The notes beneath the pieces were generated by a model. The model did not search any database and was not told the DNA's origin. It saw only the letters and a program-made list of their open reading frames with translations. Positions 12,744 through 46,229 of a stretch of DNA of 64,000 nt are shown here, one piece after another; position 1 is the first letter of the stretch, and each line of letters begins with the position of its first letter. The DNA lies in assembly GCA_965243105.1 (NCBI GenBank), contig CBDEUC010000003.1:2487541-2551540 (forward strand), read 5' to 3'. Source of the stretch: Gammaproteobacteria bacterium (GTDB lineage: Bacteria; Pseudomonadota; Gammaproteobacteria; Eutrophobiales; Eutrophobiaceae). A program made the position numbers and the translations under genes.

Positions 12744-13226
12744 TCAGGGCTGGTAGGGCAGGGAAGAATGATGCAGCACAATTCTCAGCGTTCCTTCTTC
12801 GTCTTTCTTATAGCCCCAGCTTTTATCAAGCTTGGTGACGTTGCCATCCTTGTCAGTGCAGATCACCCAGCCCATCCACATTGCCACGTCTCCCTGGATG
12901 AAAGTGGCTGAAGTCTCAGAAACCACGTTGCGCCACCCCTTGATCGCAAAACCACCATCCAGCGGATAGTCATCACTGTGACCGACGAAGTAGGATAGTG
13001 CACCTTCTCTCGTTGGTCGGAAAGTTTGTTCGCCGCTTGCGAGGGTCGGCTTGAACAGGACCGGACCCATGTTATAACCATAGGCAGCATCAAGCGCGCC
13101 GTTGGCCATTTCCGTCGCAGCATCGATACCGCCGTCTTCGAAAGCTTTTGAAATAGCAACCAGGGCATCGCCCCATATCTTGCGTGCTTCTGTCAGTTCC
13201 TGTTCCGTAATCGTAGTTGTCATCAT
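12744..13226 (-). CDS. Hypothetical protein, NTF2-like/SnoaL-like fold suspected
   Basis: 160 aa with no diagnostic motif. The size and sequence feel of NTF2-like proteins. Confidence 0.3.
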   Translation of the reverse strand: MMTTTITEQELTEARKIWGDALVAISKAFEDGGIDAATEMANGALDAAYGYNMGPVLFKPTLASGEQTFRPTREGALSYFVGHSDDYPLDGGFAIKGWRNVVSETSATFIQGDVAMWMGWVICTDKDGNVTKLDKSWGYKKDEEGTLRIVLHHSSLPYQP

Positions 13227-13474: not shown

Positions 13475-14185
13475 TCAAAAAGAATGGTGCAGGCTGACCT
13501 GGATTTGCCCCTTGTCGACGTTGCTGGTTGCCTGGTGCATATAGCCGCCCTGTATTTTGAAGTTCTTTGTAAGGCTGTATCCAAGCGCGGCATAGAGACG
13601 ATTTCGATCAAAGGTTTTTACGCGCCGACCGTTGCCAATATTTTTTTCCAGGTTGAGAAAGATCTCGTTATAAATTGCAAGATACCAGGTGCCCGGGTCA
13701 ATGTGGGTGTTATTCAGTGGAATATCCATGAACAGTGCGTAGCGGAAACGAGTGCGAAAGTCCTGGTCCTCCACCCATCGCTGCTCTGTACGAAATCGGT
13801 GCCTGAACTTGAGGCGTTCGCCAAGCCCGTGCCGAACCAGGGCTTCCTGGTAAATACGGTGTTCATTGCTGGTGGCATCGCTGTCCCCAAAAGCACCGGA
13901 AGTAATATTGGCGTAACCCTGTGTCAGCGTCACAACCTTGTTCCTCGTGGTCCAGGTCAGCCCACCCCTGAGCAACAATTGCTCCAGGTCACCACCAAGA
14001 TCCCAGTTACGATATTGCACATCTCCCTGCAGACCCCATTGCGATCCTTCAAATTGTTTGGCGAAAAAGTACATGTACCATGCGCCAGTATCGTCCTCGT
14101 CGATAGCCTGCTGCGCAAAGGAAACGCCGGGCAGCATCTTCAACACCAGGATAAGGCACAGTAATTTCTTGATTGGCTTATTCAT
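13475..14185 (-). CDS. Outer-membrane beta-barrel protein (DUF2490-like)
   Basis: Signal peptide ending SFA after the internal start MNKPIKK. Aromatic-rich alternating beta strands and a C-terminal F. Confidence 0.5.
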   Translation of the reverse strand: MNKPIKKLLCLILVLKMLPGVSFAQQAIDEDDTGAWYMYFFAKQFEGSQWGLQGDVQYRNWDLGGDLEQLLLRGGLTWTTRNKVVTLTQGYANITSGAFGDSDATSNEHRIYQEALVRHGLGERLKFRHRFRTEQRWVEDQDFRTRFRYALFMDIPLNNTHIDPGTWYLAIYNEIFLNLEKNIGNGRRVKTFDRNRLYAALGYSLTKNFKIQGGYMHQATSNVDKGQIQVSLHHSF

Positions 14186-14654
14186 ACGGGGCGGGATTAT
14201 GCACAAATACATCGGTGTTCTTCAATTTTTATGCAGCGCTTGGCGAGGGGTAAACGCGCATTCGGGTAAGTTTTCGCGTCGAACATCAGCGCCAGGCTGC
14301 GTGGATATCTTGAAAGTCTTGCTTGTCATGGCAATGGATTATAACCGTATTTGTCACCCATTTGAGGTAGTCAGTGTCAGAATTCCGTAAGCGAAAAGCA
14401 GTAATATCTCCTGCGCTGACATAAATCTGTCCTTATTTGATGCATACCGGGCCAGTCCCTGCTGGCAGCCTGCCTTCACTTGCGGGTTCGCTCGATTAAC
14501 GATTATCATTTGTCGACTTTCCTTGTCTTATACATCTCGAATGTGTTTTCGAAACTGCTTTCGAACATCTTTTGAGTAGATTTGCTGAGTCCAATCTATA
14601 AATAAAAACAACAATTCAGGGGTCTGAATCGTCGCAGGGGGAACCGCGAGGGAA

Positions 14655-15467
14655 ATGGAGGAAAAGAGTCCGGAAGATGCAGGGTTGCCTTCGCCCGAGA
14701 GCCTGGTGCAGGACATTGGGCGGGGCAGGTTACAAGCTGAGGGCTTACTCGTCTCCCGTTACTGGCGCAGCCTGTATTTCATACTCCAGCGCCGAAGCAA
14801 TGATGTTGATCTCGCTGCTGACATTGCCCAGGACACCTTCATGGTGGTCATTCGCAAGGCCCGCAATGGTGAAATAACCAATCCTTCTGCTGTCGCCGCG
14901 TTTATTCGCCAGACCGGTATTAACCTGCTTATCGCGCATTACAGGAAGGAAAAAAGAAGAAATACAGAGGCTGACAGCGATATTATTCTTGACGCCGCCG
15001 ATAGCTCACCTGGCCTGTTACAGTCAGTAGAAGCAGAAAAGGTATTCGAACTCGTCATCCAGGTGCTGGAAGAGTTAAAGGTCGAAAGAGACCGCGAGAT
15101 TCTAAAGGCCTATTTTTTACATGAAGAAGAAAAAGCCGCGATATGCGACCGCCTGGGGCTGAGCCACGAACATTTTGACCGGGTACTTCACAGGGCCAGG
15201 GGCAGGTTAAAGCAATTACTTGAATTCAAGTACGGGGAAATCAAGCTAACTGGTGCAGAAGAGAGCATCGCCAGTACCCTGTTACTGATGCTTTTTCTCA
15301 TTGAAACAGCTCATATTCCTTATCATCCGCATAATTTCTCTAATTCTGCATTTACAGTGAGAGAACCGCACTCTTCCCATCACTATGAAGGCAGAAACGA
15401 GATTTACGGAAGAATCTTCAACTCGGGAGGGGAGGACAGCTATACCTGTCCCATGAAAACCAGTTGA
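14655..15467 (+). CDS. ECF-type RNA polymerase sigma factor with a roughly 80-aa C-terminal extension
   Basis: Sigma-70 region 2 (DIAQDTFMVV) and region 4 (REILKAYFLHEE...). The extra C-terminal segment includes a hydrophobic stretch. Confidence 0.75.
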   Translation: MEEKSPEDAGLPSPESLVQDIGRGRLQAEGLLVSRYWRSLYFILQRRSNDVDLAADIAQDTFMVVIRKARNGEITNPSAVAAFIRQTGINLLIAHYRKEKRRNTEADSDIILDAADSSPGLLQSVEAEKVFELVIQVLEELKVERDREILKAYFLHEEEKAAICDRLGLSHEHFDRVLHRARGRLKQLLEFKYGEIKLTGAEESIASTLLLMLFLIETAHIPYHPHNFSNSAFTVREPHSSHHYEGRNEIYGRIFNSGGEDSYTCPMKTS

Positions 15468-15478
15468 GAGTGAATTAA

Positions 15479-16117
15479 ATGGATAAAGACTACATAGAAG
15501 AGCAGGACATTTCGGGTAAATACCTGCGTGGCGAGTTAACTGCTGAAGAAATAGAGAGCTTTGAGCTTCTGTTCATGGATGACCCGGAACTGTTGGAGCG
15601 ACTTGAACTTGACGCAGCGTTTTTTCGACATGCAGGTGGTGCGCACGAAGAAATTGATAATGTTAATAAAAACAGCACTTGGTTATCGTTTATCCAGGTT
15701 GCCATGGGCATGGCAGCGGGTGTACTGATCATGACTTTTGTACCCCAGTTAACCAGGGATGATGAGGATTTACTGGACACCCTTGGTATTGCCCAGGTCG
15801 AATACATTGATGAACTCAGGGGTGTTGATCCGGGTAAGGTTCCAACACGCTCGATTGAGTTAAACAGTAGCGCAGAGAACCTGGTGATTGTCATTGATAC
15901 CGGTGACATATTAAACATGTCCTATGACATCGTTATTAACAGGAACTCAGGAAACAGGCAGGTGGTCTCCAGCGTTATTAATGTCGCTGATACAACGGGT
16001 GAACTTGTCATTTATATTCCCGTGAGACTTATTAGTGAAGATGTTTATGTCCTGACAATGTATGAGAGTGGCACTCGTGATGTGATGAAAACATTCTTTC
16101 TTGATGTAAGCCATTAG
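15479..16117 (+). CDS. Single-pass membrane protein in the anti-sigma position (putative anti-sigma factor)
   Basis: Lies 12 nt downstream of the ECF sigma gene. Cytoplasmic N-terminus, one TM (WLSFIQVAMGMAAGVLIMTFV), periplasmic C-terminus. No zinc-binding anti-sigma motif. Confidence 0.4.
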   Translation: MDKDYIEEQDISGKYLRGELTAEEIESFELLFMDDPELLERLELDAAFFRHAGGAHEEIDNVNKNSTWLSFIQVAMGMAAGVLIMTFVPQLTRDDEDLLDTLGIAQVEYIDELRGVDPGKVPTRSIELNSSAENLVIVIDTGDILNMSYDIVINRNSGNRQVVSSVINVADTTGELVIYIPVRLISEDVYVLTMYESGTRDVMKTFFLDVSH

Positions 16118-16145
16118 CACGGTTCTACATTGCCCTGTAGAAAAA

Positions 16146-17444
16146 ATGAAAAAAAAAGATATACGGGCACTTATTCCGGAGATAGCGACGAGCATGACGG
16201 GTGCCAGTTATGGCTCTTCTACATTGAGCGCCGGTATGACCTACCTGGGTCAGTTTATCTCTCACGAAATCGTTCCTAACACCATAAAGCTGACTACTTC
16301 ACGGGTAGTCACAAGAGAACTTAACCTTGACAGCGTCTATGGTGACAACAGTCTTTACACCAACCTGCTCGGGGATAAGGATAATATTTTCTTTCGCAAA
16401 AACGGGCGGTTTGTCCTGAATGAAAACAATCCGCATGACCTGAACAGGATTGAAAAGGGCCCCTTGAAGGGAACCGCCGTTATACCGGAGCAGCGTAATG
16501 ATGAAAACATGATCATTGCGCAACTGCACCTGCTGTGGCAAAAGTTACACAATGCCCTGATGGATAAAGGTATCGCAAGGAGTGCCCTGGATGCGCGAAA
16601 GATAGTCACGCTCATGATTCAGGTGGTTATTATCGAGGATTACCTGCACCAGGTGCTGGACGAGAATGTGTTTCACGCTTACTTCAGAAGCAGCAGGAAA
16701 TACCTGAAATTCGATTTCACCAGCATCCCGACTTTTTTTTCACACGCTGGTTTCCGCTTCGGGCATAGCATGGTCCGTGAAGTCTATGAAGTGAACAACG
16801 GCAGGAAGCTGCCCCTGTTAAGTCTCTTCGGCAGTGAAATGCCTATCCCGGGCGACAAGGCCATTTCATGGGACAAGTTTTTTAGAATCGACGGTAGTGA
16901 AAGTGCGCAGAAAGCGCTTGAAATAAATACTTTTATCAGCACACACATGAAAAGCATACCAGGCAGTGGTTTGCATAACATCACAACCCATATTATCGAG
17001 CGTAATCTTCTTGCCGGGTTGGAAGCCGGTTTGCCAGGTGGTAAGGAGTTTGTACAGTCAGTTATGGAACAATGCAATCGCTGCGACATCAAGAAAGACC
17101 TTGACCTCCACCTGCTGGAGGATATCTCGCAGGCTTCTTTCAGCGATGTCAAAGGCCTTTCCATTGATAACCTGCCATTGTGGCTCTATATCCTTTACGA
17201 GGCACAGGTGGAACATTCAGGTTTCAGGCTGGGCGTCCTCGGAAGCATGATCGCCGCGGAGGTATTAAGTGCCTCAATGTCCGGTGCTGCTATTTCCGTA
17301 TATAAGAATGACACTTACGAGGTAGATGAAGTTATGGAAATGCTTGACGAATTAGTTCCGGGATTCACGTCGGGATTTGATGTGAATTTCAAACAGGCCG
17401 ACATGTTCATGTCGAATTTGATCAAATTTGTGGAAAACAGCTAG
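16146..17444 (+). CDS. Short bacterial haem peroxidase of the peroxidase-cyclooxygenase (animal haem peroxidase) superfamily
   Basis: Distal-His region LGQFISHEI. REHNR-like helix RNDENMIIAQLHLLWQKLHN. Proximal FRFGH motif (AGFRFGHSMV). No signal peptide. Confidence 0.5.
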   Translation: MKKKDIRALIPEIATSMTGASYGSSTLSAGMTYLGQFISHEIVPNTIKLTTSRVVTRELNLDSVYGDNSLYTNLLGDKDNIFFRKNGRFVLNENNPHDLNRIEKGPLKGTAVIPEQRNDENMIIAQLHLLWQKLHNALMDKGIARSALDARKIVTLMIQVVIIEDYLHQVLDENVFHAYFRSSRKYLKFDFTSIPTFFSHAGFRFGHSMVREVYEVNNGRKLPLLSLFGSEMPIPGDKAISWDKFFRIDGSESAQKALEINTFISTHMKSIPGSGLHNITTHIIERNLLAGLEAGLPGGKEFVQSVMEQCNRCDIKKDLDLHLLEDISQASFSDVKGLSIDNLPLWLYILYEAQVEHSGFRLGVLGSMIAAEVLSASMSGAAISVYKNDTYEVDEVMEMLDELVPGFTSGFDVNFKQADMFMSNLIKFVENS

Positions 17445-17455
17445 GAGGAGGAAAG

Positions 17456-17950
17456 ATGGCTAAAGACTATAAGAAGGAAACGGACTGGGCGGCAGGGCCC
17501 CACAACGTATCGACAGCTATATTCGAGGTGGATAATTCCCAGGCAGAAAAACATACCGATCTACATCCGTATCTTCCCAGTGACAATGGCAAGTACAAGT
17601 TCAAATCGCTGGTGTATCCCGACGGAGCGGGTGGTCACTTTATTTTCCAGATACCCGATGATAACGGGCCATGGGATAAAAACATGGGCGTTATTATGCG
17701 TTCGCTGAAGTTAAAATTGCAGGATGATGAAAAAGGTAATCCTTACCTGCTGGACGCAAATGTCAGCTACGATCTGAAAGGGGGTAGCATTGGTAATGAT
17801 CCCGGTTGGGATGTCACCGAGTGGCGTGTCGATGTTGCGAATATTGGTAGGGAGGATGAAGAAATCCTGGACACGGTTACCTGGACCAAGGAAGGTGTAG
17901 GTACGATCCAGACCTTCGCCAAGTGGCGTCCTTACAAAGAGCTCGCATAA
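17456..17950 (+). CDS. Hypothetical 164-aa protein with no recognisable family
   Basis: Strong RBS (TAGGAGGAGG) 6 nt before the ATG. Sits between the peroxidase and CHAT genes with 11-nt and 22-nt gaps. Confidence 0.5.
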   Translation: MAKDYKKETDWAAGPHNVSTAIFEVDNSQAEKHTDLHPYLPSDNGKYKFKSLVYPDGAGGHFIFQIPDDNGPWDKNMGVIMRSLKLKLQDDEKGNPYLLDANVSYDLKGGSIGNDPGWDVTEWRVDVANIGREDEEILDTVTWTKEGVGTIQTFAKWRPYKELA

Positions 17951-17972
17951 ACACACAGGGCAGGTTGTCAGC

Positions 17973-20666
17973 ATGGGAGTGAGATTCCTGTTTTTAAGTT
18001 TGAGCCTTCTGGTTTGTCCAGGGGCTCTCGCCTGCGATGTTGAGTTGATTTTCTCAAGGTCATTGCCTTCCGCGCAGGGATCAAGGAGTGACCCTGTCGG
18101 AGCGCTGGCAATTCACGAGGAATATTTGCAGCAGGTGTCCTGCAGAAGCAGCCCCGCTACTCGAGCCGGTAGTTCTATCAAGCTTGTCGAGCTAATCCTT
18201 AACAAGGCGCAACATGGGTCGGCTAGCCGGGAAGCCTTGCATGAAAATGCGATTGCGCTGATCAGTGATGCAAAAAATGAAAGTAAGGCTAATGGTTTGT
18301 ATATCGAGTATGCACGCCTTCTTCAATTGCAGTGGGTCCTGCATCTCCAGATAAATGAATCCATAAAAGGCCTGGAGCTGCTACCCGAGGCTATTGATTA
18401 CTTAAAACGAGCTGAAGCTCCCACTGAATTGATCGCGGAGATTTATAAAGATCTTTCCTACACCTATATCCTGGCAGGAGAATTCTCCAGTGCGAAAACA
18501 TACCTGAGACGGGCTGTTGTTCTTACAGTAAATTCCAGCGATGACGATCTAAAAACAGAAATTATCCTGTCTATCGCTGATGCCTATAGAAAAACGGCCG
18601 AGCTCGAAATTGCAACAAGATACTATCGGCAGGCATATTCAATCAACGAGGCGAAAAACAATGAATTCAAGTACGACGCCCTGCTCAAGCTGGGTACCCT
18701 CGACAGGGAACAGGGCTACATTGACAGGGCTGTTAAGAAACATCTTAATTCCTACGAATTCTTTAAAAGTGGAAATTATTACAGGTCACTGGTAGCTGAA
18801 ATCGAACTTGCCCGTGATTTCCTGGCAAAGAGTGATCTTGAACAGTCAAGCAAGTACGCATTACTCGCCTTCAATGATAGTCGTGCGTTCACTGAGCAAA
18901 AACTCGATGCAGTGCTGGTATTGATGAAATCCGATCCGGGTAACTGGGAAAAATGGTCGAATGAAATCCAGGCTATCCTGGAGAGCGCTATAGCAAGATC
19001 AGGCACTGATGTTGCTCACCCGATACGCCAGCTGGAGCATGCTCGCCTGGAACTTGGGTATGTTTCAGAATCAGGAGATGAAGATGCTATCAGGCAAGTA
19101 GGTGAAAAAGGATTACGCGTATTCACAAGGTTACGCGATGACTTGAACCGCTCAGAGGAGGCTTACCACGGCTGGATGGCGTCCGCAAAACCCTTTATCA
19201 GCACCTATATCAAGACACTCTATCACACGGACAAGGAGCGCCTGTTTGATGTCCTTGAAAAAACCTACTCAATTAGTCCGAAACCGAACCAGTTACAAGG
19301 CGCTCCCCTGCTTAATCAGCAAAAGGAACCAGAAGAGATTGCCCTTTTTGAAGCCTATCTTGGCGCCGAGAAAATGGTGGTCGATGCCAGTTCGGACTGG
19401 GAAAAGGAACGTAATACTACTAACAGGGAAAAGCTGGAGCAGCTCAAAACAAGCAGGGACCTGGCAAGAGAAGCTTACCTTGAATCGAGGAAAAGCAAGC
19501 AAGAGAAAATTATTCCTCGGCCCGAAGTCGTCGAAATGACACCGAGTGAAATCGCTCCTGGAGACCTGTTTCTCAGGTATTACCTGCAAAAAGATATCAG
19601 CCTGTTGCTGGCAAGGCATGCGGGTGGTGAAGAGATTATCGAGTTGCCAGCTCGCTCAGAAATAAGAAAGCTGGTGAACGAACTGGACGAGCTTTTCCTG
19701 TCTGGTGGATCGAGCCGTGCAAAGCGACTGCAGTTACTGGGCCAGTTACGGGTGCTGTTGCCAGTACAATTATTGCAGGACAGGGATTTCCTCAGGCTGG
19801 TCATCCTGCCCGATGACGAGATCCACAGGGTACCCTTTTCCGCGATCAACCTGGAAAACCGGGATGGCTTCTATAAACCTGTTTCGAGCAAGTATCGAAT
19901 TACACGAACACATTCGGCATACCAGTACTATGCCGGGAATAGCCAGGGCAACATGAATGTTGAAAATACCGGTGCTGATATCCTGGTATTTGCCGATCCA
20001 CATTTTGACGAATATCGGCATGCTGGTAGTTCCTCAGACTCTTTCAGGAACTGGTCAAGGAACCTTGCTCGATTACCGCACACAGCGGATGAAGCCAGGC
20101 AAATCGTTACTCTTTTCCCCGATAAGAAAACCGCTGTTTTCCAGGGTAAAGAAGCTACGGACGCAATCCTGTTATCAGAGCAGGCAAGATTGGCAAATGT
20201 TCTGCATATTGCCACTCACGGTTACTACAACCAGAACACACCGGACATTGTTGGTGTCGCAACAGCGGTGGAAGACAAGGATGGTAATCCACAAAGGGGT
20301 TTCCTGAGCTTGTCAGCATTGCTGAGCATGCCCTATAACTCGGACTTAATTGTCATCAGCGGTTGTGAAACTATGCTTGGAAAAGAATATGACGGTTTTG
20401 GCGTGCAGGGCCTTGCCCAGGCCTTCATTGCACAAGGTGCTGGCTCCGTTGTCGGTACGCTATGGAAAGTTGCAGATAAACCCACCTCGATATTTATGAG
20501 GTACTTCTACGAGGCGCTGAAATCAAATGGCGGCAACAGTTCCCTGGCATTAAATACTGCCAGGAACAGGTTGGCATCAATGGGGAGATACAGGGATCCG
20601 ATTTACTGGGCTGCATTTGTCCTGACTTCGGCGAATACCTCGTTTGAGGAAAACATTCTTCATTGA
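17973..20666 (+). CDS. Secreted TPR-repeat protein with a C-terminal CHAT (caspase-like) peptidase domain
   Basis: Signal peptide (LLVCPGALA). TPR-like helical repeats. CHAT His/Cys dyad (HIATHGYY and ISGCETMLG). Confidence 0.75.
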   Translation: MGVRFLFLSLSLLVCPGALACDVELIFSRSLPSAQGSRSDPVGALAIHEEYLQQVSCRSSPATRAGSSIKLVELILNKAQHGSASREALHENAIALISDAKNESKANGLYIEYARLLQLQWVLHLQINESIKGLELLPEAIDYLKRAEAPTELIAEIYKDLSYTYILAGEFSSAKTYLRRAVVLTVNSSDDDLKTEIILSIADAYRKTAELEIATRYYRQAYSINEAKNNEFKYDALLKLGTLDREQGYIDRAVKKHLNSYEFFKSGNYYRSLVAEIELARDFLAKSDLEQSSKYALLAFNDSRAFTEQKLDAVLVLMKSDPGNWEKWSNEIQAILESAIARSGTDVAHPIRQLEHARLELGYVSESGDEDAIRQVGEKGLRVFTRLRDDLNRSEEAYHGWMASAKPFISTYIKTLYHTDKERLFDVLEKTYSISPKPNQLQGAPLLNQQKEPEEIALFEAYLGAEKMVVDASSDWEKERNTTNREKLEQLKTSRDLAREAYLESRKSKQEKIIPRPEVVEMTPSEIAPGDLFLRYYLQKDISLLLARHAGGEEIIELPARSEIRKLVNELDELFLSGGSSRAKRLQLLGQLRVLLPVQLLQDRDFLRLVILPDDEIHRVPFSAINLENRDGFYKPVSSKYRITRTHSAYQYYAGNSQGNMNVENTGADILVFADPHFDEYRHAGSSSDSFRNWSRNLARLPHTADEARQIVTLFPDKKTAVFQGKEATDAILLSEQARLANVLHIATHGYYNQNTPDIVGVATAVEDKDGNPQRGFLSLSALLSMPYNSDLIVISGCETMLGKEYDGFGVQGLAQAFIAQGAGSVVGTLWKVADKPTSIFMRYFYEALKSNGGNSSLALNTARNRLASMGRYRDPIYWAAFVLTSANTSFEENILH

Positions 20667-20732: not shown

Positions 20733-22223
20733 CTAGTCCCAGGAAAAATCACCATCCTGGTTCAAGGGCACCCCTTCCAGTTCAAATGCCCTGACCAGGG
20801 GCTCTAGTTCTGACTCGTAGTTTTTCCAACGGTACACGGACTTACTATAGATAGGTTGCCTGACCTGCCAGCTACTGGCTGTCCTGACGGACCTGCCGAA
20901 CTCCTGTGGTGAAAGACAATTCTCATCCCACTCTAGATCAAGGAAATCCAGGAGAGCTCTAATTTCCCTTTCACCATGACCAACCAGGTCCTGGTATCTC
21001 ATGGTATAAACGGGTATATCCAGGTTCTTTGTCCAGTGCTGCATTAATTTCAGGTACCCGGAGTAATAACAGGCGATATTACTCAAGGTGAAACTGAAAG
21101 ACTGTGAGTCTACAAAATTTTGAAAATAACAGGACAGGCAGGTATCAAGCGTGTTCCTGACACAATGAATAATGCGGGCCCTGGGGAAGATTAGCTTGAT
21201 CAAGGGCAAGTAGGTAAAGTTTGCAGGCATTTTATCAATAAAACGCACAGGACCAGCGCCTACCAGGTTTTCCGCTTTTTCCAGGTAAAGCTGTGCGAAA
21301 TCTTGCAACTTTTCCCTGGTTATATTTTCACGGTAGCCACTGAATGCATCTGATGTACCGGAAGTGATTACCCTACCAGACTTGTTTGTTGATAATTTAC
21401 CGCTAATAACCCTCTTATTTTTACACAATTCAAAATAAAAAAAGTTGTGAATATCTCTCAGCTCTCCCATACCAGCCACATCCCGGTGGGAAGCAAGAAT
21501 TTGCTCTGTTAATGTCGTGCCTGACCGGGGCATGCCGACTATAAAAACAGGCCTGTCATCACTTACCCCGCTTGATTGGACCGAGGCCATATATTCCACT
21601 GAAAAATTGGCAATCAGTTGATTAATATGCTGGTGAAAATCTGTTTGGCTGAATTGTAACTGGACCCGGGCATTGCCTTTACGATAATGACGAAATGCCT
21701 CCCGGTAATTTTTACAGTCATCGTAGATTTTCCCCAATGTAAAATGCAAAGTACATTGTGCGTCTTGCGATATGTCGGGTTGCCTTAAAAGCTCTTCTGC
21801 TTTACTAATTAGAGATTCTTCACCTGAATATTTCTTACAATGTGCCAGTTGATAATAACTGTTAGCAAATGACGGATTTAACTCGAGTGATTTTAAATAC
21901 AGGGTCTCCGCTTCCGAAAAAAGACCCATATCAAACTTGGCATTACCCATCCTGTATATGGGCAAATAGGATTCACCATGTAACTTGATGACCGTGGCAA
22001 GTATTGCTATTGCATCTTCAGCCTTATGTTGTTGTTGAAGTGCCAGGGCAAGCCCGAGCATGGCTGAAAAATTGTTTTCGGACTGTTCAAGTATTTGCCG
22101 GTAAATGATTTCTGCGTCTTCCGGCTTTTTCTCATTATGATACTGGCGCGCCTTCAGCAGTTGTTCGTCGAAGCGGGCTTTCCGTGGCCTTATTTGGCCT
22201 TTTATTTCATAGTTCTTGTTCAT
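20733..22223 (-). CDS. TPR-repeat protein fused to a sulfotransferase domain
   Basis: N-terminal TPRs. PAPS-binding 5'-PSB-like motif GMPRSGTT and a downstream sulfotransferase region. Confidence 0.7.
   Translation of the reverse strand: MNKNYEIKGQIRPRKARFDEQLLKARQYHNEKKPEDAEIIYRQILEQSENNFSAMLGLALALQQQHKAEDAIAILATVIKLHGESYLPIYRMGNAKFDMGLFSEAETLYLKSLELNPSFANSYYQLAHCKKYSGEESLISKAEELLRQPDISQDAQCTLHFTLGKIYDDCKNYREAFRHYRKGNARVQLQFSQTDFHQHINQLIANFSVEYMASVQSSGVSDDRPVFIVGMPRSGTTLTEQILASHRDVAGMGELRDIHNFFYFELCKNKRVISGKLSTNKSGRVITSGTSDAFSGYRENITREKLQDFAQLYLEKAENLVGAGPVRFIDKMPANFTYLPLIKLIFPRARIIHCVRNTLDTCLSCYFQNFVDSQSFSFTLSNIACYYSGYLKLMQHWTKNLDIPVYTMRYQDLVGHGEREIRALLDFLDLEWDENCLSPQEFGRSVRTASSWQVRQPIYSKSVYRWKNYESELEPLVRAFELEGVPLNQDGDFSWD

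Positions 22224-44525: not shown

Positions 44526-46229
<1,704 letters not shown>

What the first reader, a model, noticed from the sequence alone, without database searches (positions are those of the whole stretch)
14655..20666. ECF sigma / anti-sigma / haem peroxidase / unknown 164-aa protein / secreted TPR-CHAT protease: a candidate undescribed envelope-stress or defence module
Five co-oriented genes with gaps of 11-28 nt look like one operon. They are an ECF sigma factor with an unusual C-terminal extension, a single-pass membrane protein in the anti-sigma position, a cytoplasmic short peroxidase-cyclooxygenase-superfamily haem enzyme, a 164-aa protein with no recognisable family, and a signal-peptide-bearing TPR-CHAT caspase-like protease. 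CHAT-TPR proteases are so far known mainly as effectors in programmed-death and defence contexts, for example type III-E Craspase. A pairing with an animal-type haem peroxidase under an ECF sigma is not a described system as far as I know. A working model: sigma/anti-sigma regulated proteolysis in which the CHAT protease cleaves the 164-aa protein or the anti-sigma, with the peroxidase supplying an oxidative effector or signal function.
Basis: partly seen in the sequence, partly recalled or inferred. Interest (0 to 1): 0.85.

Follow-up and report, generated by a model that had tools for sequence, protein, structure and literature searches.

The report
Conserved sigma–peroxidase–barrel–CHAT protease cassette
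Five adjacent genes (an alternative sigma factor, its probable membrane inhibitor, a myeloperoxidase-like haem enzyme, a previously unrecognised small beta-barrel protein and an exported caspase-like protease) form a cassette that recurs in more than a dozen unrelated, mostly marine bacteria and has not been described before, so it is real and new, but what it does is still inferred.

Summary
Five co-oriented ORFs (14655-20666, gaps of 11, 28, 11 and 22 nt) encode an ECF sigma factor, a single-pass membrane protein, an MPO-type haem peroxidase, a 164-aa protein and a signal-peptide TPR-CHAT protease.

The decisive new evidence is synteny. Every close relative of the peroxidase, the 164-aa protein or the membrane protein that I could place on a contig lies in the same cassette. 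That covers about 14 independent loci in Alteromonadaceae, Kangiella, Marinicella, Alcanivoracaceae, Steroidobacteraceae, one Rhodospirillales and metagenomes. Two loci have a permuted gene order. No flanking genes are shared between loci.

The invariant core is peroxidase, barrel and exported CHAT. One organism lacks the sigma/anti-sigma pair near the core.

The 164-aa protein founds a small family with no Pfam match. It is Trp-rich and gives a confident model (pLDDT 94) of a loosely lipocalin-like barrel.

Catalytic residues of both the peroxidase and the CHAT domain are invariant.

My best model (about 0.4) is a split version of Myxococcus DdvS/DdvA. The periplasmic TPR-CHAT triggers proteolysis of the anti-sigma, and the released sigma induces a cytoplasmic peroxidase-barrel pair.

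Cleavage of the 164-aa protein by CHAT is topologically unlikely. A defence role has no contextual support. I rate it a new variant of a known kind, with interest about 0.62.

The parts
14213..14654 (+). Upstream intergenic region. It presumably holds the cassette promoter. It contains a 12-bp-stem inverted repeat at 14608-14635, 20-47 nt before the sigma start codon.
   Evidence: One search gives the ORF limits. One search found the inverted repeat. No ECF-type two-block motif is shared with the upstream regions of 10 other loci beyond the shuffle expectation.
14655..15467 (+). ECF (group IV) sigma factor, 270 aa. The sigma-2/sigma-4 core spans residues about 32-190.
   Evidence: Pfam Sigma70_r2 at 2e-07 and r4 at 6.7e-04. 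NCBIfam TIGR02937 at 2.4e-18. The best PDB relatives are AlgU, SigW and RpoE.
15225..15464 (+). C-terminal extension of the sigma factor (residues 191-270). It has a hydrophobic 17-mer at residues 205-221, followed by a His-rich tail with a 'VRE....HH' motif.
   Evidence: Present in 7 of 9 orthologues, absent in L017 and short in L006. KD hydropathy is 1.4-1.9 in five orthologues. Its function is unexplained.
15479..16117 (+). Probable single-pass anti-sigma factor, 212 aa. It has a cytoplasmic helical N-terminus (residues 1-67), a TM segment (about residues 68-89, nt 15680-15745) and a periplasmic all-beta domain (about residues 106-212). Arg114 (nt 15818-15820) is invariant.
   Evidence: It sits directly after the sigma gene in all loci, and the two genes often overlap by 4 nt. 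Y15, L20, E29 and R114 are invariant. The single-sequence AF2 model is low-confidence (pLDDT 52) but predicts helices, then a TM segment, then beta strands. It matches no Pfam family, so the anti-sigma role is inferred.
16146..17444 (+). Short cytoplasmic haem peroxidase of the peroxidase-cyclooxygenase superfamily, 432 aa. Key residues: distal Gln36/His40, Arg117, Glu120, proximal His207, Asn287.
   Evidence: Pfam An_peroxidase at 2e-13. The alignment to myeloperoxidase places Arg117/Glu120 and His207 on MPO's catalytic Arg/Glu and proximal His. These residues are invariant in 31 homologues. There is no N-terminal hydrophobic segment.
17456..17950 (+). 164-aa member of a new small family. The predicted fold is a calycin-like (lipocalin/FABP-like) beta-barrel. 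Conserved residues: W11, W73, W118, W123, W143, W157, Y160.
17973..20666 (+). Exported TPR-CHAT caspase-like protease, 897 aa. It has a signal peptide (residues 1-20, nt 17973-18032), a TPR region (about residues 126-350, nt 18348-19022) and a CHAT domain (residues 597-884, nt 19761-20624). The catalytic residues are His749 (20217-20219) and Cys798 (20364-20366).
   Evidence: Pfam CHAT at 2e-50. His749 and Cys798 are invariant in 8-9 orthologues. The TPR region is confirmed by the profile search. Signal-like N-termini occur in all orthologues. The domain is weakly related to Craspase Csx29 (E about 0.01), separase, and a 991-aa CHAT chain, 8rot_B (E 1.9), which I take to be DdvA from its length but did not verify.

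Best explanation
This is a self-contained, horizontally scattered cassette that couples an envelope sensor to a cytoplasmic oxidant-handling enzyme pair. The steps below are marked as shown or inferred.

(a) Shown: the five genes form one conserved unit.

(b) Shown from sequence: the TPR-CHAT protein is exported and keeps its His-Cys dyad. The 212-aa protein is a single-pass membrane protein with a cytoplasmic helical N-terminus and a periplasmic beta domain. The peroxidase keeps a complete MPO-type active site. The peroxidase and the barrel protein lack export signals, and their genes are translationally coupled.

(c) Inferred by analogy with DdvS/DdvA and Craspase/Csx30: the 212-aa protein sequesters the ECF sigma. 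A periplasmic signal, bound through the TPR array, activates the CHAT protease. The protease then clips the periplasmic domain of the anti-sigma (site-1 cleavage). Intramembrane and cytoplasmic proteases finish the job and release the sigma.

(d) Inferred: the released sigma raises transcription of its own operon. The output is the cytoplasmic haem peroxidase working with its ligand-binding barrel partner. The barrel could carry the substrate, product or haem, or act as a modulator. The pair would consume a peroxide or oxidise a small hydrophobic substrate. A plausible setting is the oxidative and halogenating environment of marine, alga-associated bacteria.

In lineages without the linked sigma/anti-sigma pair, the triad would be under other control.
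For: Synteny. All eight genome loci whose peroxidase belongs to the closest clade carry the cassette genes in the flanks available; the cut L007 contig ends inside the peroxidase. None of 72 more distant peroxidase loci has an adjacent CHAT, and only L047 has a weak CHAT-like hit about 3 kb upstream. Every relative of the barrel protein that could be placed lies directly after a peroxidase gene and, wherever the contig continues and the next ORF could be identified (L086, L090, L091/L092), before a TPR-CHAT gene. Both metagenome loci found with the anti-sigma as query carry the cassette genes as far as the contig reaches (full in L093, cut inside the peroxidase in L094). Two permuted orders (L006, L017) retain all five genes. 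The flanks are unrelated between loci.

Topology. Signal-like N-termini occur in all CHAT orthologues and in none of the peroxidases or barrels. The anti-sigma has a TM segment in all 9 loci.

Catalytic competence. CHAT His749/Cys798 are invariant. Peroxidase Q36, H40, R117, H207 and N287 are invariant, and position 120 is always E or D.

Coupling. The peroxidase stop codon and the barrel start codon overlap or abut in L017, L086 and L091. The sigma and anti-sigma genes overlap in L007, L014 and L044.

Precedent. DdvA is a transmembrane anti-sigma with a periplasmic TPR-CHAT proposed to act as its own site-1 protease (PMC11506125). The Csx29 TPR-CHAT cleaves Csx30 to relieve inhibition of an ECF-type sigma (PMC10028731).

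The one invariant periplasmic residue of the anti-sigma, Arg114 in the motif h-x-Y-h-x-x-h-R-[G/S], is a candidate recognition or cleavage site.
Against: No experiment supports any step. The anti-sigma assignment rests on position, topology and an N-terminal motif only, with no family match. L091/L092 keep the peroxidase-barrel-CHAT triad without a nearby sigma/anti-sigma. This shows that the link between CHAT and the peroxidase/barrel does not depend on this sigma pair, and the model does not explain that. No shared ECF-type promoter motif was found upstream of the cassettes. In the low-confidence model, Arg114 lies just after the first beta strand of the periplasmic domain rather than in the TM-proximal linker, so it may be structural. 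The role of the barrel and the substrate of the peroxidase are unknown. The sigma's hydrophobic, His-rich C-terminal extension is unexplained.
Confidence: 0.4

Rival explanations
1. The core triad is a metabolic, detoxification or small-molecule unit, and the sigma pair is only an optional transcriptional switch. The cytoplasmic peroxidase and its lipocalin-like partner would make or destroy a hydrophobic small molecule, such as a lipid hydroperoxide, an oxidised or halogenated metabolite, or a signal. The exported TPR-CHAT would have a separate but co-selected envelope role, for example processing or clearing an exported or oxidatively damaged protein. In this model the CHAT protease does not act on the anti-sigma.
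For: The triad persists without a sigma/anti-sigma in L091/L092. The barrel resembles ligand-binding calycins, including lipocalin-type prostaglandin D synthase, FABPs and haem-binding nitrobindin/nitrophorin. The peroxidase and barrel genes are translationally coupled. The physiological role of short bacterial members of this superfamily is stated to be unknown (PMC4420034).
Confidence: 0.25
2. It is an anti-phage or other conflict system. The exported TPR-CHAT and anti-sigma would sense an invader-derived periplasmic protein, as proposed for DdvA. The sigma would then switch on a cytoplasmic MPO-type peroxidase that makes hypohalous acid or radicals as a suicidal or antiviral effector. The barrel would act as its inhibitor or cofactor carrier.
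For: In both characterised cases where a TPR-CHAT is tied to an ECF-type sigma, the system is a defence system (PMC11506125, PMC10028731). The cassette has a patchy distribution and unrelated flanks, as mobile defence genes do. Its GC content (0.466-0.48) is lower than most of the window (0.50-0.56). The peroxidase has the full halide-oxidising type of distal site: His, Arg and Gln, plus Glu120.
Against: None of the five proteins matches a PADLOC model. There are no defence genes next to the cassette in the window or in five other loci, whose neighbours are PutA, a transporter, CcmB, YebC, GGDEF/HD-GYP proteins, Crp and a hybrid kinase. The window has no CRISPR array or tandem repeats. The distal Asp that forms the second haem ester link in halogenating MPO/LPO is Ser or Ala here.
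Confidence: 0.2
3. This is the first reader's specific version: the CHAT protease cleaves the 164-aa protein, which would serve as a Csx30-like substrate or adaptor.
For: The gene order places the 164-aa gene directly before the CHAT gene in every locus. This mirrors the adjacency of Csx29 and Csx30 in type III-E loci (PMC10028731).
Against: The two proteins are predicted to be in different compartments. The CHAT protein has a signal-peptide-like N-terminus in all 10 orthologues examined, including the re-called TTG start in L091. The 164-aa family has hydrophilic N-termini throughout. The 164-aa protein is a compact, confidently folded barrel with no long disordered segment.
Confidence: 0.05

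Closest known systems
DdvS/DdvA of Myxococcus xanthus (an ECF sigma plus a transmembrane anti-sigma carrying a periplasmic TPR-CHAT; PMC11506125, PMC6061681)
   Same: An ECF sigma gene is followed by a single-pass anti-sigma gene. A TPR-CHAT module with an intact His-Cys dyad is located in the periplasm. The distribution is narrow and patchy. The proposed logic is the same: a periplasmic CHAT acts as sensor and site-1 protease upstream of RseP-type cleavage.
   Different: Here the TPR-CHAT is a separate secreted protein rather than being fused to the anti-sigma. The anti-sigma has its own small all-beta periplasmic domain and lacks the Zn-binding HxxxCxxC motif. The linked output genes are a haem peroxidase and a barrel protein rather than CBASS/CRISPR-Cas. 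At sequence level the CHAT domain is no closer to 8rot_B (the 991-aa chain I take to be DdvA; E 1.9) than to Craspase (E 0.01).
Type III-E Craspase module (Cas7-11, Csx29 TPR-CHAT, Csx30, Csx31, CASP-sigma/RpoE; PMC10028731)
   Same: A TPR-CHAT protease is genetically linked to an ECF-type sigma and its inhibitor. Proteolysis relieves the inhibition of the sigma.
   Different: There is no Cas7-11, no CRISPR array and no RNA guide. The CHAT protein here is exported, whereas Csx29 is cytoplasmic. The inhibitor here is a membrane protein. None of the five proteins hits a PADLOC model.
RpoE/RseA/DegS/RseP regulated intramembrane proteolysis
   Same: The same general scheme is proposed: a periplasmic protease clips a single-pass anti-sigma, which is then cleaved within the membrane, releasing an ECF sigma.
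   Different: The candidate site-1 protease is a clan-CD caspase-like CHAT enzyme encoded in the same operon, not a PDZ serine protease. No RseB-like partner is present.
Short bacterial members ('short peroxicins', Family 5) of the peroxidase-cyclooxygenase superfamily (PMC4420034), and the characterised cyanobacterial LspPOX (Family 6)
   Same: A single-domain bacterial enzyme of about 430 aa with the distal Gln/His, the X-R-X-X-E motif and the proximal His-Asn pair.
   Different: Family placement was not tested by phylogeny. The Asp that gives the first haem ester bond is replaced by Ser or Ala. This clade is defined by its obligate linkage to a barrel gene and a CHAT gene, which has not been reported. 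[quoted passage not shown]
Calycin superfamily (lipocalins, FABPs, avidins, nitrobindin)
   Same: The predicted fold is a small antiparallel beta-barrel with one helix. The best structural neighbours are ligand-binding barrels.

Membership tests
ECF (group IV) sigma-70 factors | [quoted passage not shown] | tested here: met
   Pfam reports only Sigma70_r2 (residues 32-102) and r4 (144-187). TIGR02937 sigma70-ECF scores 66 bits against a cut-off of 42.9. The nearest solved relatives are AlgU, SigW and RpoE.
ECF (group IV) sigma-70 factors | Autoregulated promoter with an ECF-type -35/-10 | tested here: inconclusive
   No two-block motif is shared by the 11 upstream regions beyond what shuffles give. 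The taxa may be too divergent for this test.
Casas-Pastor group ECF220 (Proteobacteria, C-terminal extension, TM proteins at +1/-1) | Match to the group HMM | not testable with these tools
   The description in PMC7826278 fits: proteobacterial, with a C-terminal extension and a TM protein at +1. The group models and the paper's supplements are not available. This is a lead only.
Class I anti-sigma factors (ASD, single-pass) | N-terminal helical anti-sigma domain recognisable by sequence (zf-HC2/RskA-like) | tested here: not met
   No Pfam or NCBIfam hit for any of 9 orthologues, even at E<=1. Only a motif resemblance exists (YLxGxLxxEExxxFE....PEL), and it lacks the His/Cys zinc ligands.
Class I anti-sigma factors (ASD, single-pass) | Gene immediately downstream of, and coupled to, the sigma gene; one TM helix; an extracytoplasmic C-terminal domain | tested here: met
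   Adjacent in all loci and overlapping in several. One hydrophobic 19-mer in all 9 orthologues. Beta strands are predicted after the TM segment (low confidence).
Class I anti-sigma factors (ASD, single-pass) | Physical binding to, and inhibition of, the cognate sigma | not testable with these tools
   This needs a two-hybrid or pull-down assay, or a multimer structure prediction.
Peroxidase-cyclooxygenase superfamily (Pfam An_peroxidase PF03098) | Profile match above the gathering score | tested here: met
   50.2 bits against a cut-off of 25. All 120 listed homologues carry PF03098.
Peroxidase-cyclooxygenase superfamily (Pfam An_peroxidase PF03098) | Distal Gln-x-x-x-His, catalytic Arg in X-R-X-X-E, proximal His with an H-bonded Asn | tested here: met
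   Q36, H40, R117, H207 and N287 are invariant in 31 sequences. Position 120 is E in 21 and D in 10. The alignment to MPO is in register.
Peroxidase-cyclooxygenase superfamily (Pfam An_peroxidase PF03098) | Haem binding and peroxidase activity | not testable with these tools
   This requires purified protein.
Cyclooxygenase / fatty-acid dioxygenase branch (Family 4) | Catalytic Tyr three residues before the proximal His (Y-x-x-H), and no distal Arg | tested here: not met
   The residue at -3 is an invariant Arg204 (F-R-F-G-H-S), and the distal Arg117 is present. No COX or dioxygenase chain appears among the PDB sequence hits at E<=1e-3.
CHAT / clan CD caspase-like proteases (PF12770) | Profile match and a conserved His-Cys catalytic dyad | tested here: met
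   172 bits, E 2e-50. His749 (THG) and Cys798 (SGCET) are invariant in all orthologues. The Cys region aligns to the Craspase Csx29 catalytic region.
CHAT / clan CD caspase-like proteases (PF12770) | N-terminal TPR array (TPR-CHAT architecture) | tested here: met
   The single-sequence TPR hits are weak. The orthologue profile matches TPR proteins strongly over profile positions about 200-430.
DdvA-type TPR-CHAT anti-sigma | ZASD, TM helix and TPR-CHAT in a single polypeptide | tested here: not met
   The anti-sigma (212 aa) and the TPR-CHAT (897 aa) are separate genes in every locus, with two other genes between them in the window's order.
DdvA-type TPR-CHAT anti-sigma | Extracytoplasmic location of the TPR-CHAT | tested here: met
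   N-terminal signal-like hydrophobic segments occur in all 10 orthologues. This is a prediction only.
Type III-E CRISPR Craspase | Adjacent Cas7-11 (gRAMP) gene and a CRISPR array | tested here: not met
   The neighbours are DUF2490, hemerythrin, a sulfotransferase and a FadB-like gene. The window has no tandem repeats. There are no PADLOC hits.
Known anti-phage defence systems (PADLOC-DB v2) | Any component matching a defence-system model | tested here: not met
   All five proteins gave 0 families at E<=0.01.
Calycin (lipocalin/FABP-like) beta-barrels | A closed antiparallel beta-barrel enclosing a ligand pocket, with structural similarity to members | tested here: inconclusive

The most novel reading that the evidence does not exclude
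The cassette is a third, stand-alone architecture in which a caspase-like TPR-CHAT protease controls an ECF sigma factor. It would work from the periplasm, in trans, on a new type of anti-sigma. Its dedicated output would be a cytoplasmic myeloperoxidase-like enzyme held in check or supplied by a new Trp-rich barrel protein. In other words, bacteria would switch on an 'animal-type' oxidant-generating peroxidase in response to an envelope signal, either as a suicide or antiviral effector or to produce a signalling molecule. This would also give short bacterial peroxidases of this superfamily their first physiological role.
Probability: 0.15. Interest if true: 0.85.

Novelty: new variant of a known kind. 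Interest (0 to 1): 0.62.

Why it matters
Four reasons.

1. It extends the recently discovered link between caspase-like TPR-CHAT proteases and ECF sigma factors (Craspase/Csx30, DdvA) to a split, secreted-protease format outside CRISPR/CBASS contexts. That format is genetically easy to dissect, because the protease, the anti-sigma and the sigma are separate genes.

2. It gives a defined genomic and regulatory context to the short bacterial members of the peroxidase-cyclooxygenase superfamily. A field review states that their physiological role is completely unknown (PMC4420034).

3. It defines two unannotated protein families: the Trp-rich barrel and the anti-sigma-like membrane protein. Both appear to exist only in this cassette, so their function can be addressed directly.

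4. The strict linkage of an exported protease with two cytoplasmic proteins is itself a puzzle. Solving it should reveal either a trans-envelope signalling route or an unrecognised export route.

Tried and rejected
- **Shared ECF-type promoter.** I looked for a two-block motif (5-mer, 14-18 nt spacer, 4-mer) in 11 upstream regions. The best motif occurred in 4 of 11, and shuffles reach 3-4, so there was no signal.
- **Pfam, NCBIfam, PHROG and PADLOC on the anti-sigma and the 164-aa protein.** This included every orthologue at E<=1. Nothing was found.
- **Long proteins hit by the 164-aa query (P0126, P0136, P0142).** They are repetitive Ig/SdrD/cadherin-like surface proteins in unrelated contexts. 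I rejected them as compositional matches.
- **The UniRef name 'Virion structural protein' for the Paraglaciecola barrel homologue.** A fold search of viral structures gave nothing at E<=1e-3, so I rejected the label.
- **AFDB50 fold search.** The library was not available.
- **Single-sequence AF2 of the anti-sigma.** The result was low-confidence (pLDDT 52). It was usable only for coarse secondary structure and not for a fold search.
- **Conserved neighbours of the more distant peroxidase clades.** None were found: at most 7 of about 70 loci share a SARP-like regulator. These clades therefore give no functional hint.
- **Conserved flanking genes around the cassette.** None were found.
- **Source organism.** I could not identify it. 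The exact peroxidase sequence is on a 2.76-Mb NCBI/ENA contig with no name attached, and the genome scan found no closer relative than 45% identity.
- **ECF classification supplement.** It is not held as text.
- **Literature searches.** I searched for ECF with CHAT and peroxidase together, and for haem/heme peroxidase with CHAT. No paper was found.
- **COX-like dioxygenase reading of the enzyme.** Rejected on active-site residues.

Full report
**1. The observation**

- 14655-15467 (270 aa)
- 15479-16117 (212 aa)
- 16146-17444 (432 aa)
- 17456-17950 (164 aa)
- 17973-20666 (897 aa)

The gaps between them are 11, 28, 11 and 22 nt. The upstream neighbour (DUF2490, 13475-14212) and the downstream neighbour (a TPR-sulfotransferase, 20733-22223) are both on the other strand, so the five genes are bounded as a unit.

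No convincing + strand terminator or sigma-70-type promoter lies between the genes. Shine-Dalgarno-like sequences precede most of the starts. GC content over the cassette (0.466-0.48) is a little below most of the window.

**2. Identity of the parts**

*Family matches.* Pfam gives Sigma70_r2 and r4 for gene 1, An_peroxidase (2e-13) for gene 3, and CHAT (2e-50, residues 597-884) with weak TPR hits for gene 5. Genes 2 and 4 get nothing. NCBIfam confirms an ECF-type sigma (TIGR02937, 2.4e-18).

*Peroxidase.* It aligns to human myeloperoxidase in register. Arg117-x-x-Glu120 falls on MPO's catalytic Arg and haem-linking Glu. F-R-F-G-His207 falls on the proximal-His motif.

In an alignment of 31 homologues, Gln36, His40, Arg117, His207 and Asn287 are invariant, and position 120 is always Glu or Asp. 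The residue three positions before the proximal His is an invariant Arg, not the Tyr of cyclooxygenases and fatty-acid dioxygenases. The enzyme is therefore a true peroxidase and not a dioxygenase.

The Asp that makes the first haem ester bond in MPO and LPO is Ser or Ala here. Only about 40 residues precede the distal His, and they are not hydrophobic. This points to a short, cytoplasmic enzyme. It fits the 'short bacterial' members of the peroxidase-cyclooxygenase superfamily, whose physiological role the field's review calls completely unknown (PMC4420034). I did not test the exact family placement.

*CHAT protein.* It has a typical signal peptide (MGVRFLFLSLSLLVCPGALA/C). It also has a TPR region that a profile of nine orthologues matches strongly to solved TPR proteins. 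Its CHAT domain carries His749 (THG) and Cys798 (SGCET), both invariant in all orthologues. At sequence level the CHAT domain is only distantly related to solved CHAT proteases: Craspase Csx29 at E about 0.01, separase at about 0.5, and the 991-aa chain 8rot_B at 1.9, which I take to be DdvA from its length but did not verify.

*The 212-aa protein.* Three features stand out:
- a conserved N-terminal motif (Y15, L20, E29; 'YLxGxLxxEExxxFE....PEL');
- one transmembrane segment in all nine orthologues;
- a C-terminal region predicted, at low confidence, to be all-beta.

The N-terminal motif resembles zinc-binding anti-sigma domains without the zinc ligands. That comparison rests on my own knowledge of the ZAS motif.

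The only invariant periplasmic residue is Arg114, in the motif h-x-Y-h-x-x-h-R-[G/S]. No family model recognises the protein. 'Anti-sigma' is therefore an inference from position, coupling and topology.

*Sigma extension.* The roughly 80-aa C-terminal extension is present in 7 of 9 orthologues. In the Alteromonadales-like members it consists of a hydrophobic 17-mer followed by a His-rich tail with a 'VRE....HH' motif. I cannot explain it. One possibility is a membrane tether.

**3. The 164-aa protein**

The word-indexed search found only two close relatives, both in metagenomes. An exhaustive HMMER scan of 1.84 billion representatives found 22 hits. Three of them are long repetitive surface proteins, which I reject as compositional matches.

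The remaining roughly 19 small proteins (138-191 aa), together with the proteins that occupy the same slot in genome loci, align with conserved W11, P41, W73, W118, W123, W143, W157 and Y160.

With this alignment AlphaFold2 gives a very confident model (pLDDT 94.1, pTM 0.89). The model is a mostly-beta protein with short helices.

Foldseek agrees qualitatively, with lipocalin-type PGD synthase, odorant-binding protein and nitrophorin at the top. Its scores are not significant (E >= 0.02, TM <= 0.39).

No viral structure matches. The UniRef label 'Virion structural protein' on one homologue is therefore unsupported.

I conclude that this is a new family with a loosely lipocalin-like barrel, and that it probably binds a ligand or a partner protein.

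**4. Synteny: the decisive evidence**

I scanned one genome per GTDB species with peroxidase motifs and kept the 80 best loci. Searching their ORFs with the five window proteins gave a clear split.

The eight loci with the most similar peroxidases all carry the cassette genes as far as the contig reaches (L007 ends inside the peroxidase):
- Peristeroidobacter agariperforans
- a Kangiella MAG
- Aliiglaciecola
- Marinicella meishanensis
- Aestuariibacter
- an Alcanivoracaceae MAG
- a Rhodospirillales MAG
- Paraglaciecola aquimarina

None of the 72 loci with more distant peroxidases (31% identity or less) has an adjacent CHAT gene. The only near-miss is a weak CHAT-like hit about 3 kb upstream in L047. 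Those loci have no conserved neighbours at all.

In two loci the order is permuted to peroxidase, barrel, CHAT, sigma, anti-sigma, and all five genes are retained.

Each relative of the barrel protein that I located on a contig lies directly after a peroxidase gene. Where the contig continues and I could identify the next ORF (L086, L090, L091/L092), a TPR-CHAT gene follows (L001-L005, L086, L089-L092).

A metagenome scan using the anti-sigma as query found two loci. L093 has the full cassette, and L094 is cut inside the peroxidase.

Flanking genes are unrelated between loci. They are ordinary housekeeping or regulatory genes. The cassette therefore moves as a unit.

One organism (L091/L092) has the peroxidase-barrel-CHAT triad with no sigma or anti-sigma within 6.7 kb upstream or 5.3 kb downstream of the cassette. 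Its CHAT protein is the most similar of all to the window's. So the triad is the invariant core, and the sigma pair is a frequent but dispensable companion: it is present in 13 of the 14 loci where it could be scored.

**5. Topology**

A hydropathy scan shows a signal-like N-terminal segment in the CHAT orthologues. For L086, L090 and L091 the segment appeared only after I re-read the start regions. In L091 a TTG start five bases after the barrel's stop codon gives MPRVLLVVLLLGW....

No peroxidase orthologue and no barrel orthologue has such a segment.

The protease and the periplasmic domain of the anti-sigma are therefore predicted to be on one side of the membrane. The sigma, the peroxidase and the barrel are predicted to be on the other.

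**6. Mechanism**

Two precedents link a TPR-CHAT protease to an ECF-type sigma.
- In Myxococcus xanthus, the transmembrane anti-sigma DdvA carries a periplasmic TPR-CHAT. It is proposed to clip its own linker as a site-1 protease before RseP cleavage, releasing DdvS (PMC11506125).
- In type III-E systems, the Csx29 TPR-CHAT cleaves Csx30, an inhibitor of CASP-sigma (PMC10028731).

The cassette here looks like a split DdvA: an anti-sigma with a small periplasmic domain plus a separate secreted TPR-CHAT.

My best model (confidence about 0.4) has three steps. A signal activates the CHAT protease, which initiates proteolysis of the anti-sigma. The sigma is released. The operon is induced, and its cytoplasmic output is the peroxidase working with its barrel partner. 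The peroxidase and barrel genes overlap or abut in several loci, which suggests a physical pair.

All of these steps are inferred. What is shown is the conserved linkage, the predicted topology and the intact catalytic residues.

The weak point is the sigma-less triad. It shows that CHAT is tied to the peroxidase and barrel in some way that does not pass through this sigma pair.

**7. Rivals**

- *Metabolic or detoxification reading (0.25).* The peroxidase and barrel act on a small hydrophobic molecule, and the sigma pair is only a switch.
- *Defence or abortive-infection reading (0.2).* The peroxidase is the toxic effector. This is attractive by analogy. However, it has no PADLOC match, no defence-island context and no CRISPR array.
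- *CHAT cleaves the 164-aa protein (0.05).* This conflicts with the predicted topology and with the compact fold of the protein.
- *Chance adjacency.* The synteny excludes it.

**8. Novelty and score**

Full-text searches for ECF with CHAT and peroxidase together, and for haem/heme peroxidase with CHAT, found no description of this cassette.

The 2021 ECF reclassification lists a small proteobacterial group, ECF220, with a C-terminal extension and TM proteins at +1/-1. This may be the sigma's group, but I could not test it.

I rate the finding a new variant of a known kind, namely protease-gated ECF sigma signalling with a TPR-CHAT protease. It has an undescribed output pair and two unannotated protein families.

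My interest score is about 0.62. The cassette is real, conserved, undescribed and experimentally tractable, and it touches two open questions: what bacterial CHAT proteases do, and what short bacterial 'animal-type' peroxidases do. Against that, it is rare, and every functional statement remains inference.

Noticed in passing
window 44675-44961 (-): Rfam RF02514 (5' ureB sRNA) matches at 111.7 bits. The match is antisense inside a 567-aa + strand ORF (44526-46229) in what looks like a urease cluster. It probably reflects conserved urease coding sequence rather than a real sRNA.
   Followed up: no
window 14608-14635: A 12-bp-stem inverted repeat lies 20-47 nt upstream of the sigma start codon. 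The scan scored it as a minus-strand terminator-like site. It could be a 5'-UTR hairpin or an operator for the cassette.
   Followed up: no
window 15225-15464 (sigma residues 191-270): The sigma factor's C-terminal extension has a hydrophobic 17-mer (KD 1.9) followed by a His-rich tail. A 'VRE....HH' motif is shared with the Kangiella, Aliiglaciecola, Paraglaciecola and Aestuariibacter orthologues. The extension is absent in the Rhodospirillales locus. It might be a membrane tether or a metal/haem-binding tail. Unexplained.
   Followed up: partly
L044 9980-11334; L093 2121-3449: The peroxidase gene is split into two ORFs in Paraglaciecola aquimarina and in one metagenome contig. This suggests a frameshift or pseudogene, or else an assembly error. 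The rest of the cassette is intact in both.
   Followed up: no
L091 / L092 (same organism, two gut-metagenome samples): The peroxidase-barrel-CHAT triad has no ECF sigma or anti-sigma within 6.7 kb upstream or 5.3 kb downstream of the cassette. The called CHAT start misses a signal peptide, which a TTG start at L091 8548 restores.
   Followed up: yes
L014 11261-12070: The barrel homologue in the Alcanivoracaceae MAG is 269 aa because of an insertion of about 100 aa, rich in Lys and Glu, before the last conserved Trp.
   Followed up: no
P0144 (Paraglaciecola aquimarina WP_316024489.1): UniRef names this barrel homologue 'Virion structural protein'. A fold search against viral structures gave no match at E<=1e-3, and the gene sits in the cassette rather than in a prophage. 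The label looks wrong.
   Followed up: yes
window 12744-13226 (-): A 160-aa ORF between the hemerythrin gene and the DUF2490 gene has no Pfam family.
   Followed up: no
window 20733-22223 (-): The convergent neighbour encodes an N-terminal TPR array fused to a sulfotransferase domain (Sulfotransfer_3, 2e-42). It is not conserved next to the cassette in other loci.
   Followed up: partly
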